From an uncultured Hymenobacter sp. (lineage in GTDB: Bacteria; Bacteroidota; Bacteroidia; Cytophagales; Hymenobacteraceae), in contig CAJYPK010000053.1 of the NCBI GenBank assembly GCA_913776615.1, positions 9,778 through 73,777 on the forward strand: a stretch of 64,000 nucleotides of DNA. Reading direction: 5' to 3'. This document shows, one piece after another, positions 28,901 through 30,069 of the stretch (positions are counted from its first letter, which is position 1; the number at the start of each line of letters is the position of its first letter). The translations under genes were made by a program, and so were the position numbers. The notes beneath the pieces are model-generated. The model did no database searches and was not told the DNA's origin. It saw nothing but the letters and a program-made list of their open reading frames with translations.

Positions 28901-29018
28901 CGGGGCGGGCGGTGGCACCATCGTGGCCCAGGGCACGCCCGAGCAGGTAGCCAAGGCCGGCAAGGGCCACACCGGGCGGTTTTTGGCTGAGGAGCTGAAA
29001 ACCAGTCAGTACGTGTAA
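25917..29018 (+). CDS. uvrA: Excinuclease ABC subunit A, with a ~97-aa N-terminal extension
   Basis: GAREHNLKN, two Walker A motifs ([18 protein letters not shown]), zinc fingers CPHCAG / CPVCEG / CETCEG..CETCKG, two LSGGE signatures. Confidence 0.99.
28959..29014 (+). repeat. 56-bp direct repeat, left copy (last codons of uvrA)
   Basis: ggcaagggccacaccgggcggtttttggctgaggagctgaaaaccagtcagtacgt, identical to 29971-30026. Confidence 0.98.
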
Positions 29019-29024
29019 TCGAAG

Positions 29025-29050
29025 AAAGGTGGGCTGAATAGCCCGCCTTT
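29025..29050. terminator. Terminator between uvrA and the convergent Abi gene
   Basis: aaaggtgggct-gaat-agcccgccttt. Confidence 0.75.
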
Positions 29051-29052
29051 CC

Positions 29053-29790
29053 TTATGTCGCTTGTGGGTACCTCCTACCGATAGTGCGTAGCGTATCGGG
29101 CACCCGGTCGGCCTCAGTTAGCCAAATAGGTAGCGCAGGGTCTAGCCAGCCCAGCAATTCCAGAATGGTAGTGTGTAACTGCTGTAGCTGGCTGAAACAC
29201 AAAGCATTCTTAGAATGCTTTTGGAAGCATAGTGGCTCATAATGGTACACCCTGTTGCGGAAGGTTCGAATATCCTTCAGTTTGTTGTAAATCGTCTCAC
29301 GCTCAGTACCATAAGGTCGATGCGGGAAGGCACGAAGCAGACGTTTTTGTAGTAGACCAAAATAAGTGCGGCTGAAAAGAGTTGTCCAAAAACCGAAATT
29401 CAGGTCGGCGATTAAAACTGAACCGCTAGTCGGCGGATAATTCCAACGTTCTTCAAAGTCGCGGATAGCAGTTTCCACCATGCGTAATATTTTATCATTA
29501 GTAGTTGTTTTGCCTGTTCGATAATCTTTGTTTGTCAAGCGGTTGTCTATCATAAAGCCTCGCCGCTGTTCTAGGAGCCAGTTGACAGAATTAAAATGCT
29601 GTTCTAGAACTTCATGTAAGGCATTGCGAAGCGATACTTCTAAAAAAGATAGAGGGATGTAAAAGCTTTGTGCAAGTCGTAAGTTATCAAGGTATAACAG
29701 CAGCGCCTTTTGCTCGTCGCCACCCGACGCCCTTAAGTAAGGAATAAGCCGAGGAGTAGATAAAAATTTTTGGGCGTTTTGAAACAACAT
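29053..29790 (-). CDS. Abi_2 / AbiD-AbiF-like HEPN ribonuclease (abortive-infection family)
   Basis: LSTPRLIPY...LYLDNLRL...LEVSLRNA...LNFGFW...FRNRVYHYEP. Intact HEPN RxxxxH motif. About 40-42% GC in spot counts, well below the flanking genes. Confidence 0.85.
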   Translation of the reverse strand: MLFQNAQKFLSTPRLIPYLRASGGDEQKALLLYLDNLRLAQSFYIPLSFLEVSLRNALHEVLEQHFNSVNWLLEQRRGFMIDNRLTNKDYRTGKTTTNDKILRMVETAIRDFEERWNYPPTSGSVLIADLNFGFWTTLFSRTYFGLLQKRLLRAFPHRPYGTERETIYNKLKDIRTFRNRVYHYEPLCFQKHSKNALCFSQLQQLHTTILELLGWLDPALPIWLTEADRVPDTLRTIGRRYPQAT

Positions 29791-29814
29791 TTCTTTTTAG
29801 TTCGTTACTTTGCA

Positions 29815-29919
29815 GCGTAATATTCGGTCACTCAGCTGGGCAGCCTGCGAAGGTAAGTCCTTGAAATCGGATGAAAGAAACGAGCGGACATCCTTCACCG
29901 GGTGCCCGCTCTCTTTTTT
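29815..29919 (+). ncRNA. Candidate ~100-nt small RNA divergent from the Abi-like gene
   Basis: Near-consensus promoter TTACTTTG (29805-29812) upstream. Terminator-like gagcggacatcc-ttcacc-gggtgcccgctc-tctttttt (29882-29919). Expression is inferred, not shown. Confidence 0.45.
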
Positions 29920-29970
29920 GGTATGGGCAGTACCGTCATATCTCAGGGTATGCTCGAGTAGATAATGGCT

Positions 29971-30026
29971 GGCAAGGGCCACACCGGGCGGTTTTTGGCT
30001 GAGGAGCTGAAAACCAGTCAGTACGT
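29971..30026 (+). repeat. 56-bp direct repeat, right copy (orphan uvrA 3' end, continuing GTA TAG)
   Basis: Identical to 28959-29014. Its flanks still encode [20 protein letters not shown] with synonymous differences (GCT/GCC, GTA/GTG, TAG/TAA). Confidence 0.98.
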
Positions 30027-30069
30027 ATAGTGTATTCGCCGTAATTTCGCTTCTCTAATTCCCCGTGCC

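What the first reader, a model, noticed from the sequence alone, without database searches (positions are those of the whole stretch)
28955..30030. The uvrA 3' end is duplicated exactly (56 bp) around a recombinase-free anti-phage cassette
Seen: 28959-29014 and 29971-30026 are identical, 1012 bp apart. Both encode the UvrA C-terminus [19 protein letters not shown], and the flanks differ only synonymously (GCC/GCT, GTG TAA / GTA TAG). The DNA between them is about 40-42% GC in spot counts and carries a new terminator, an Abi-like HEPN gene and a non-coding segment. A second TA pair follows the right copy. Established: integrative elements often restore the 3' end of the target gene. Inference: there is no integrase here, so this is either a minimal trans-mobilised cassette that uses uvrA as attB, or a homology-facilitated capture from a relative that left the old uvrA tail behind. 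Either way the uvrA 3' end looks like a defence-cassette hotspot, and the repeats would allow clean excision as a 1012-bp circle that leaves uvrA intact.
Basis: partly seen in the sequence, partly recalled or inferred. Interest (0 to 1): 0.85.

Follow-up and report, generated by a model that had tools for sequence, protein, structure and literature searches.

The report
Orphan uvrA tail between defence cassettes
The exact 56-bp repeat is real, but it is the live end of the repair gene uvrA plus a half-decayed leftover copy of that end: a recombination scar left when two small defence modules that relatives carry singly were stacked behind uvrA, not the ends of a self-mobile element.

Summary
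Confirmed: 28959-29014 equals 29971-30026, the only two copies in the 6.08-Mb genome. Independent Logan contigs from three other runs support the arrangement.

The right copy is longer than reported. It is a 111-bp orphan uvrA 3' fragment (29920-30030). Its first ~47 bp are decayed (about 70% identity, in-frame TAG, mostly GC-to-AT changes). Its last 56-63 bp are identical to the live gene.

Across 165 Hymenobacter species genomes, the gap between uvrA and a convergent oxidoreductase operon is polymorphic. It holds an AbiF-like gene with a structured RNA, a RelE-like pair, both, other genes, or only hairpins. This genome joins an Abi-type junction (as in G144) to a TA-type junction (as in G067, G136, G116).

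Best reading: 3'-end displacement, as at rhs and T6SS loci. This means homologous recombination in a conserved flank plus one illegitimate join at 29919/29920, followed by decay and gene conversion of the tail.

No recombinase lies on the contig, and 42 relatives' uvrA-downstream loci lack such a repeat, so an att-site cassette is unlikely. The hotspot idea is supported.

An ordinary mechanism; modest interest.

The parts
25917..29018 (+). uvrA, intact, 1033 aa
   Evidence: ORF. Pfam UvrA_inter 5e-33, UvrA_DNA-bind 1e-24. The last 300 aa are 97-99.7% identical to the orthologues of the closest relatives (89-99.7% across all loci compared).
28955..29017 (+). Left repeat copy: the live uvrA 3' end (exact part 28959-29014), followed by TAA
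   Evidence: The junction 'GTG TAA T..hairpin' matches the Abi-only relative G144.
29024..29051 (.). Hairpin between the convergent uvrA and Abi genes (terminator-like on both strands)
   Evidence: Sequence. Its core is flagged by the terminator scan. Conserved in G144.
29053..29790 (-). AbiF/AbiD-like HEPN gene, 245 aa
   Evidence: PADLOC PD-T4-5 6.5e-12 and AbiD 1e-3. Pfam Abi_2 21.1 bits, below the 25.6 cut-off. R178-N-R-V-Y-H183 motif. AlphaFold model pLDDT 89.6, whose only real PDB match is PbAbiF bound to ncRNA, 8VZ6 (TM 0.59).
29801..29919 (+). Promoter-like box (TTACTTTG, 29805-29812) and a ~100-nt structured RNA ending in a terminator. It is divergent from the Abi gene and forms the right end of the Abi module.
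   Evidence: Alignment of 8 Abi loci: 35 pairs, 98.6% paired, 8 pairs with compensatory changes, slid controls 0-2. Covariance model R1 also hits beside distant Abi homologues. All DNA matches of relatives' Abi modules end at 29919.
29920..29966 (+). Decayed proximal part of the orphan uvrA 3' fragment
   Evidence: Collinear with uvrA 28907-28954. 28/40 identities in the core, 3-nt gaps, in-frame TAG at 29959-29961, 0/5000 shuffles. The same stretch is 87-98% conserved between live uvrA genes.
29967..30030 (+). Right repeat copy: the distal part of the orphan (exact part 29971-30026) with its own stop, GTA TAG
   Evidence: Spanned with unique flanks by an independent contig.
30031..30069 (+). 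Spacer homologous to the uvrA-to-antitoxin spacer of TA-only relatives (..CGTAAtTTCgCTTCTCTAA..ATG)
   Evidence: Alignment with G116, G067, G136, G096, G156, G130.
30070..30366 (+). Candidate antitoxin, 98 aa, no family match
   Evidence: Conserved as a pair with the toxin behind uvrA in 6 relatives.
30381..30689 (+). RelE-like toxin, 99-102 aa (alternative start 30390)
   Evidence: Pfam PF06296 6.6e-6, 26.8 bits vs cut-off 27.0. All homologues of at least 59% aa in the genus lie behind uvrA.
30677..30740 (.). 30-bp-arm inverted repeat: terminator between the TA pair and the convergent oxidoreductase gene
   Evidence: Inverted repeat I2, 97% complementary. Equivalent hairpins occur in G136 and G096.
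30744..32125 (-). Right flank: FAD/NAD oxidoreductase and molybdopterin oxidoreductase operon
   Evidence: Pfam. It is the same right flank in G144, G166, G127, G019, G160, G067, G136 and G096.

Best explanation
The repeat is a recombination scar, not a pair of att sites.

In this clade of Hymenobacter, two small modules are long-term residents of the gap between uvrA and a convergent oxidoreductase operon. One is an AbiF-like HEPN gene with a divergent structured RNA. The other is a RelE-like toxin-antitoxin pair. Each one abuts the uvrA stop codon in different species.

In this genome the two haplotypes were joined by general recombination in three steps.
1. A homologous exchange occurred in a conserved flank.
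2. One illegitimate join occurred at 29919/29920. This is exactly the end of the Abi module's RNA terminator and about 111 bp before a uvrA stop.
3. As a result, the block 'uvrA 3' end + Abi module' now precedes the block 'uvrA 3' end + TA pair'.

This is the 3'-end displacement topology known from rhs and T6SS effector arrays. It can arise from a linear fragment (homology-facilitated illegitimate recombination) or from a circularised fragment with a single crossover. Which block was the newcomer is unresolved.

The displaced 111-bp uvrA piece has no function. Its proximal half decayed under AT-biased mutation. Its distal 56-63 bp have been kept, or reset, identical to the live tail by short-patch gene conversion.

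Shown: the anatomy, the polymorphism, the two parental junction types, the decay, and the absence of a recombinase in cis. Inferred: the mechanism of the join and the gene conversion.

A consequence, also inferred: RecA-type recombination between the repeats could delete the 1012-bp Abi module. That would leave uvrA intact and a TA-only haplotype.
For: (1) The left junction (GTG TAA + hairpin + Abi + RNA) is collinear with Abi-only G144 at 89% nt over 29022-29919.

(2) The right junction (tail + TAG + spacer + AT + toxin + hairpin + FADox) is collinear with the TA-only genomes G116, G067, G136 and G096.

(3) The orphan is a true uvrA fragment. It is collinear, has 3-nt gaps and an in-frame stop, and conserved GTPE codons are mutated. 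10 of its 13 substitutions are GC-to-AT transitions. Live genes are 87-98% identical in that stretch.

(4) The boundary between histories is sharp: 13 substitutions in ~47 bp, then 0 in 56 bp. About a third of the G/C sites changed in the decayed part. If the repeat's roughly 33 G/C sites had decayed at that rate, the chance of none changing is of order 1e-6 to 1e-7 (my own estimate from the sequence).

(5) Both copies share ACC where the nearest relatives (G166, G160, G144) have ACG. This points to homogenisation after divergence.

(6) Linkage is old. All 8 Abi genes of at least 50% aa identity in the genus abut a uvrA 3' end, while 13 more distant homologues do not. All toxins of at least 59% identity lie behind uvrA.

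(7) A second, independent orphan exists. G171 has a 161-bp frameshifted uvrA 3' fragment (87% to its live gene) fused to an Abi module 42 kb from uvrA.

(8) There is no Tyr or Ser recombinase on the contig, no repeat in 42 other loci, and no plasmid or phage match.

(9) Precedent: C-terminal displacement at rhs loci, with orphan core fragments near-identical to the upstream gene (PMC2935791). HFIR was proposed for T6SS immunity arrays (PMC5361080).
Against: - No donor was identified. There is no clear mosaic breakpoint in uvrA or the oxidoreductase genes. The exchange is therefore inferred from structure only.
- Polarity is unresolved. The nearest relatives carry Abi or nothing, which favours TA as the newcomer. 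The rhs analogy favours Abi as the newcomer.
- Microhomology at the joint is at most 'GG'.
- Two other Abi+TA stacks (G133:C356 and G133:C187) have no orphan tail. Stacking therefore does not require a duplication.
- Gene conversion rests on the identity/decay contrast and one shared synonymous site. It was not observed directly.
- No reads could be examined.
Confidence: 0.65

Rival explanations
1. Single recent event without gene conversion. The duplication is young, hence 56/56 identity. The divergent proximal 47 bp were already divergent when joined, either as an orphan that had decayed elsewhere or through error-prone synthesis at the illegitimate joint.
For: The repeat is perfect, and no other sampled species shares the arrangement. 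Orphan uvrA fragments attached to Abi modules do exist elsewhere and decay there (G171).
Against: A pre-decayed orphan should be decayed in its distal half too, yet that half is identical to the live gene. The Abi and TA modules are each more than 10% diverged from every sampled relative, so no young donor is visible. About 30% divergence is far beyond what junction mutagenesis normally leaves.
Confidence: 0.15
2. Homology-guided cycling. The Abi-RNA module repeatedly leaves as a 1012-bp circle and re-enters by RecA-type crossover in the uvrA tail. This would keep the crossover tract identical. It would be a recombinase-free excisable cassette.
For: The 56-bp direct repeats are above the usual minimal length for RecA recombination. 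The predicted deletion product has the structure of the TA-only haplotype found in sister species. A circular intermediate has been proposed for rhs tip exchange (PMC2935791).
Against: None of 6 other Abi loci with a live uvrA has a flanking repeat. The module has one copy per genome. It has no plasmid or phage copies. A 1-kb circle has no replication or transfer function.
Confidence: 0.1
3. Site-specific integrative mini-cassette. The two tails are attL and attR for a recombinase encoded elsewhere, with the uvrA 3' end as attB.
For: The topology resembles elements that restore the 3' end of their target gene. The insert has low GC. Six tyrosine and six serine recombinase genes exist elsewhere in the genome.
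Against: There is no recombinase on the contig. Repeats are absent from all other occupied sites. The orphan extends as decayed uvrA sequence well beyond any core site. Cargo divergence tracks or exceeds flank divergence.
Confidence: 0.04
4. Assembly artefact, or a chimera of two co-assembled strain haplotypes.
For: A 56-bp repeat can confuse short-k assemblers. The Logan unitigs break inside it.
Against: The joint from RNA terminator through decayed uvrA piece to tail exists in neither parental haplotype. It is present in contigs from three independent runs, one of which spans the right copy with both unique flanks.
Confidence: 0.01

Closest known systems
C-terminal (3'-end) displacement at rhs, CDI and T6SS effector-immunity loci (PMC2935791; PMC5361080)
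   Same: An intact conserved gene is followed by a newer module. Then comes an orphan 3' fragment of the same gene, partly near-identical to the live copy, with stop codons. Then comes the older module. The region is a low-GC trough. The proposed mechanism is homologous recombination plus an illegitimate join, or a circular intermediate. No integrase is involved.
   Different: Here the conserved gene is a housekeeping repair gene whose protein is unchanged. What is exchanged is downstream cargo (defence and TA modules), not a toxin tip. Only one displacement is seen, and the orphan is only 111 bp.
Integrative elements that duplicate and restore the 3' end of their target gene (tRNA, tmRNA, guaA and similar targets; from general knowledge)
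   Same: Direct repeats made of the target gene's 3' end bracket low-GC cargo, and the gene stays intact.
   Different: There is no recombinase in cis. Repeats are absent at all other occupied sites in relatives. The distal copy continues as decayed gene sequence. The cargo is not recently spread.
Homology-facilitated illegitimate recombination in transformable bacteria (described in PMC3240628; cited in PMC5361080)
   Same: A one-sided homologous anchor plus one non-homologous join explains a foreign block placed next to a conserved gene.
   Different: The event was not observed. Microhomology at the joint is minimal. Competence of this organism is unknown.
AbiF/AbiD (Abi_2) HEPN proteins with ncRNA antitoxins: RCd22-AbiF of C. 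difficile, PbAbiF-ncRNA (PDB 8VZ6), PD-T4-5 (bioRxiv 10.1101/2025.04.15.648962; PMC9519451)
   Same: The cargo protein has the PbAbiF fold (TM 0.59, the sole real hit), an RNxxxH motif, and a conserved structured RNA with a terminator immediately upstream.
   Different: The RNA is predicted on the opposite strand (divergent, with its own TAnnTTTG-type promoter), not co-transcribed. It does not match the Rfam abiF motif RF03085. The Pfam Abi_2 score is below the cut-off.

Membership tests
Site-specific integrative element restoring a target gene's 3' end | Recombinase gene in or next to the element | tested here: not met
   The only ORFs between and beside the repeats are Abi, AT and toxin. No PF00589 or PF00239 match anywhere on contig C53.
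Site-specific integrative element restoring a target gene's 3' end | The same att repeats flank the cargo at other occupied sites | tested here: not met
   The last 150 bp of uvrA were compared with the 1.2-2.2 kb downstream in 42 relatives' loci. No second copy was found (best z 3.6, against 50 for this genome).
Site-specific integrative element restoring a target gene's 3' end | Excised circle and empty-site junction detectable | not testable with these tools
The 56-mer was not found in metagenome contigs or genome contigs.
3'-end displacement array (rhs/T6SS type) | An orphan 3' fragment of the upstream conserved gene lies between a proximal and a distal module | tested here: met
   A 111-bp collinear uvrA fragment at 29920-30030 lies between the Abi-RNA module and the TA pair.
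3'-end displacement array (rhs/T6SS type) | Each module occurs directly attached to the intact gene in relatives | tested here: met
   Abi only: G144, G166, G127, G019. TA only: G116, G067, G136, G096, G130.
3'-end displacement array (rhs/T6SS type) | Microhomology or another signature at the illegitimate joint | tested here: inconclusive
   The joint at 29919/29920 coincides with the end of the RNA terminator. At most 'GG' is shared.
AbiF/AbiD (Abi_2) HEPN with ncRNA | Sequence profile match | tested here: inconclusive
   Pfam Abi_2 21.1 bits, below 25.6. PADLOC PD-T4-5 6.5e-12 and AbiD 1e-3. No NCBIfam match. No PDB sequence match.
AbiF/AbiD (Abi_2) HEPN with ncRNA | AbiF fold and RNxxxH catalytic motif | tested here: met
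   Model pLDDT 89.6. Top Foldseek hit 8VZ6_A PbAbiF, prob 1.00, TMq 0.59, with all other hits at or below TM 0.23. R178-N179-x3-H183 is present; N179, R180 and H183 are invariant in 7 alleles.
AbiF/AbiD (Abi_2) HEPN with ncRNA | Conserved structured RNA adjacent to the gene | tested here: met
   However, it is not Rfam RF03085 and is predicted on the opposite strand.
AbiF/AbiD (Abi_2) HEPN with ncRNA | Toxicity neutralised by the RNA; phage defence | not testable with these tools
   Needs expression and phage assays.
RelE/ParE-type type II toxin-antitoxin pair | Toxin profile match and a conserved two-gene unit | tested here: inconclusive
   PF06296 26.8 bits against a cut-off of 27.0. The pair is conserved behind uvrA in 6 relatives. 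The upstream protein has no family match. The toxin lacks about 15 N-terminal residues found in relatives.

The most novel reading that the evidence does not exclude
The 56-bp tails are kept identical because the 1012-bp AbiF-RNA module is an excisable cassette. It would cycle out as a circle and back in at the uvrA tail by host homologous recombination or a trans-acting recombinase. That would make it a recombinase-free, homology-guided mobile defence cassette, with the end of a DNA-repair gene as its landing pad.
Probability: 0.07. Interest if true: 0.75.

Novelty: new member of a known kind. Interest (0 to 1): 0.3.

Why it matters
The finding gives a clean, small natural example of how defence modules are stacked next to a conserved housekeeping gene without any dedicated mobility enzyme. 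Both parental haplotypes are still visible in sister species, and the scar records both decay and gene conversion.

It identifies the uvrA 3' flank as a variable defence islet in part of the genus Hymenobacter.

It is also a caution for genome scans: a perfect repeat that restores a gene's 3' end around low-GC cargo is not enough to call an integrative element.

The cargo itself, an AbiF-fold protein with a divergently encoded conserved structured RNA, may be the more interesting object.

Tried and rejected
(1) A 'foreign tail'. The first 20 relatives differed from the tail at 11-13 of 56 sites and used GC-richer codons, which suggested an imported tail. This was rejected once closer relatives were found (G166 95%, G160 90%) with the same TTT TTG codons.

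(2) Mosaic or donor search. Sliding-window identity of uvrA and of the oxidoreductase genes was computed against 5-7 relatives. No sharp breakpoint appeared. The 3' 250 bp of the FAD oxidoreductase gene evolves fast in all pairs, not only in this genome.

(3) Plasmid and phage collections, distant blastn: no match.

(4) Exact 56-mer scan of JGI metagenome contigs and GTDB genome contigs: no match.

(5) Exact-protein look-ups. The toxin (TTG start) and the oxidoreductase are not on record. The Abi and AT proteins gave the Logan contigs used above.

No reads were laid, and I did not pass run ids from another tool to read laying.

(7) Rfam scan of 28900-30800: only sub-threshold snoRNA noise on the terminator.

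(8) NCBIfam for the three proteins: nothing. PDB by sequence: nothing.

(9) A strand-coordinated mutation-cluster reading of the decayed piece was considered. It was dropped because a runs test on 10 transitions is not significant (my own arithmetic).

(10) A promoter for the TA pair inside the orphan tail, as a reason for its conservation. No convincing -33/-7 pair lies in the tail. The best -7-like box (TAATTTCG) lies in the spacer. In any case, selection would not explain identity at synonymous sites.
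Full report
OBSERVATION.

The repeat is real. Window 28959-29014 and 29971-30026 are identical over 56 bp. The match runs to 63 bp with two mismatches (28955-29017 vs 29967-30029), and the copies are 1012 bp apart. They are the only two copies in the 6.08-Mb genome. GC drops to 0.39-0.48 between the copies and stays at 0.48-0.57 through the following gene pair. 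uvrA is at 0.60-0.66.

The arrangement is not an assembly artefact. Three Logan contigs from other sequencing runs match it.
- One contig equals window 28985-30000. That is the unique 956 bp plus exactly 30 nt (k-1) of each repeat copy, as expected for a unitig bounded by a 56-bp repeat.
- One contig (29550-30484, one mismatch, inside the Abi gene) spans the whole right copy with unique sequence on both sides.
- One contig equals 29971-31073.

The right copy does not start at the repeat. Window 29925-29964 aligns collinearly with uvrA 28912-28954. There are 28 identities in 40 positions and one 3-nt gap. A second 3-nt gap lies just before the repeat, and there is an in-frame TAG at 29959-29961. 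No shuffle out of 5000 reaches the score, and the best place in the whole uvrA gene is the collinear one.

Read back to 29920, the right copy is a 111-bp orphan uvrA 3' fragment. Its proximal ~47 bp carry 13 substitutions, 10 of them GC-to-AT transitions. These include changes in the conserved GTPE codons. The same stretch is 87-98% identical between live uvrA genes of different species, so this part is decayed, not merely divergent.

The distal 56 bp carry no change at all. The two halves therefore have different histories, and the boundary between them is sharp.

THE CARGO.

Between the copies lie four features.
- A hairpin shared by the convergent uvrA and Abi genes (29024-29051).
- A 245-aa gene on the minus strand (29053-29790).
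- A conserved non-coding stretch (29801-29919).
- The decayed proximal part of the orphan.

The protein scores below the Pfam Abi_2 cut-off (21.1 vs 25.6 bits). It matches PADLOC PD-T4-5 at 6.5e-12. PD-T4-5 is described as a distant AbiF/D relative that gives abortive-infection defence (PMC9519451). An AlphaFold model (pLDDT 89.6) has one real structural neighbour in the PDB: PbAbiF bound to its ncRNA, 8VZ6 (prob 1.00, TM 0.59). Every other hit is at or below TM 0.23. The RNxxxH motif is present (R178-H183).

The non-coding stretch is a structured RNA gene on the plus strand. In eight Hymenobacter Abi loci, 35 predicted pairs are 98.6% paired. Eight pairs show compensatory changes, and slid controls give 0-2. 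Several invariant G-U pairs fix the strand. A TAnnTTTG-like box precedes the RNA, and a terminator ends it at 29919.

A covariance model built from these loci also finds the RNA beside distant Abi homologues of 30-42% aa identity. In every case the hit is upstream of the Abi gene and on the opposite strand. The hits are in other Cytophagales families, in Proteiniphilum and Fermentimonas, and in a Pyrinomonadaceae MAG. There is no Rfam match, including the abiF motif.

AbiF proteins neutralised by an upstream ncRNA are known (bioRxiv 10.1101/2025.04.15.648962). There the RNA is co-transcribed with the gene; here it is predicted to be divergent.

After the orphan come a 98-aa protein with no family match and a 99-102-aa RelE-like protein (PF06296, 26.8 bits vs cut-off 27.0). 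A strong hairpin follows, and then the convergent oxidoreductase operon.

COMPARATIVE PICTURE.

Record titles identify the genus as Hymenobacter. I compared 165 genomes, one per species. In the clade where uvrA faces the FAD/molybdopterin oxidoreductase operon, the gap between them is polymorphic.

| State of the gap | Genomes |
|---|---|
| Only hairpins (232 bp) | G160 |
| Other genes | G051, G155, G167, G109 |
| Abi-RNA module alone | G144, G166, G127, G019 |
| TA pair alone | G116, G067, G136, G096 (pseudogenised) |
| Deletion scar of the TA pair (different downstream gene) | G156 |
| Abi + TA without any orphan tail | G133:C356 (with an IS630-like insertion between the two) |

Two further contigs carry uvrA-linked cargo but have a different, or unseen, right flank. 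G130 has the TA pair alone. G133:C187 has Abi + TA without an orphan tail and is flanked by a DUF4142-like gene.

The linkage is old and specific.
- All eight Abi genes of at least 50% aa identity in the genus abut a uvrA 3' end. Thirteen more distant homologues in the genus and order do not.
- All six toxins of at least 59% identity lie behind uvrA. The many paralogues of 54% or less are elsewhere.
- Abi alleles are only 50-55% identical between species whose uvrA 3' ends are 91-95% identical at the nucleotide level. Only G144 carries the same allele (90% aa, 89% nt).

This genome's left junction (GTG TAA, hairpin, Abi, RNA terminator) is collinear with G144 up to 29919, where every relative's Abi match ends. 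Its right junction (tail, TAG, a 39-bp spacer with ..CGTAAtTTCgCTTCTCTAA.., ATGAC.ACCGCCCAG) is collinear with the live uvrA-antitoxin junction of the TA-only genomes. The genome therefore joins an Abi-type haplotype to a TA-type haplotype. The orphan marks the former uvrA-TA junction.

MECHANISM.

There is no tyrosine or serine recombinase on the contig. A sensitive scan of the 1.2-2.2 kb downstream of uvrA found no second tail in 42 relatives' loci. The cassette is absent from plasmid and phage collections. An att-site reading therefore fails its defining tests.

The topology is that of 3'-end displacement. In that process, an incoming block made of the conserved gene's 3' end plus a new module recombines homologously in the conserved gene. 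It is joined illegitimately at its other end, and it pushes the old 3' end and its module downstream.

This has been described for rhs loci, where orphan core fragments are near-identical to the upstream gene and carry stops. A circular intermediate was proposed there (PMC2935791). For T6SS immunity arrays, homology-facilitated illegitimate recombination was proposed (PMC5361080).

Here the illegitimate joint is at 29919/29920, exactly at the end of the RNA terminator.

The mirror-image history gives the same structure. In that history, a block 'uvrA last 111 bp + TA' from a TA-type relative is captured between the Abi terminator and the oxidoreductase gene, anchored by homology in the oxidoreductase gene. 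I could not decide between the two. The nearest relatives carry Abi or nothing, which favours TA as the newcomer. The displacement analogy favours Abi as the newcomer. Sliding-window comparisons show no breakpoint or donor.

A second, independent orphan supports the general process. G171 carries a 161-bp frameshifted uvrA 3' fragment (87% to its live gene) fused to an Abi-RNA module 42 kb from uvrA.

WHY THE TAILS ARE IDENTICAL.

In any of these histories, the orphan's proximal half needs time to decay, while the distal half shows none. Both copies also share ACC where the nearest relatives have ACG.

The simplest account is short-patch gene conversion between the two tails. Conversion would be confined to the tract that is still similar enough, and the edge of the duplication would erode. 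This is inference.

A recent event that used an already decayed orphan is the main rival (0.15). It does not explain why only half of the orphan is decayed.

CONSEQUENCES.

Recombination between the 56-bp repeats would delete the 1012-bp Abi-RNA module. It would leave uvrA intact with a TA-only haplotype of the kind seen in sister species. That is plausible at low frequency but untested.

VERDICT.

- The 'trans-mobilised cassette / attB' alternative is not supported.
- The feature is a new example of a known kind of recombination scar.
- Interest is modest (0.3).

Noticed in passing
window 29801-29922 (+): A conserved structured RNA (~100 nt, own TAnnTTTG-like box, terminator) lies divergent from the AbiF-like gene. 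35 pairs are 98.6% paired, and 8 pairs show compensatory changes. The covariance model also hits upstream of, and on the opposite strand to, distant Abi homologues in other Cytophagales families, Proteiniphilum, Fermentimonas and a Pyrinomonadaceae MAG. It is not the Rfam abiF motif. It is probably the RNA partner of an AbiF-type type III-like toxin-antitoxin system, in an unusual divergent layout.
   Followed up: partly
L059 1325-1485 (G171:C4, about 433,440-433,600): A second, independent orphan: a 161-bp frameshifted uvrA 3' fragment (87% identical to that genome's live uvrA) fused to an Abi-RNA module. It sits between an outer-membrane-like gene and a DUF4142-like gene, 42 kb from the live uvrA and in the opposite orientation.
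   Followed up: partly
window 29965-30030 (+): An AAG-to-ATG change just before the identical tract creates a 21-codon ORF ([21 protein letters not shown]). Its residues 3-21 repeat the last 19 residues of UvrA. There is no evidence that it is expressed.
   Followed up: no
window 30381-30689 (+): The RelE-like toxin lacks about 15 N-terminal residues present in G067, G136 and G116 (..IPFVEFNRRAKRLVKKY..). It may be truncated or inactive. In relatives the pair is also eroding: G096 has in-frame stops, and G156 keeps only a fused start/end scar.
   Followed up: partly
L032 (G133:C356), reverse-complemented, about 1700-2790: An IS630-like element with a TA target duplication sits between the Abi RNA terminator and the antitoxin gene, in another Abi+TA stack that has no orphan tail.
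   Followed up: partly
L004 2513-3253 (G019) and L057 (G166): Signs of erosion among the Abi alleles. G019's copy has an in-frame TGA. G166's copy has Cys in place of the motif arginine R178.
   Followed up: no
L035 about 1650-1740 (G160) and L066 (G171, downstream of the live uvrA): The 'empty' uvrA-downstream gaps hold very long perfect palindromes (stems of about 34 bp). These may be REP- or MITE-like elements.
   Followed up: no
window 30744-30994 (-): The 3' 250 bp of the FAD/NAD oxidoreductase gene are only 75-87% identical in all species pairs, against 83-92% further into the gene. Divergence is elevated next to the variable islet.
   Followed up: partly
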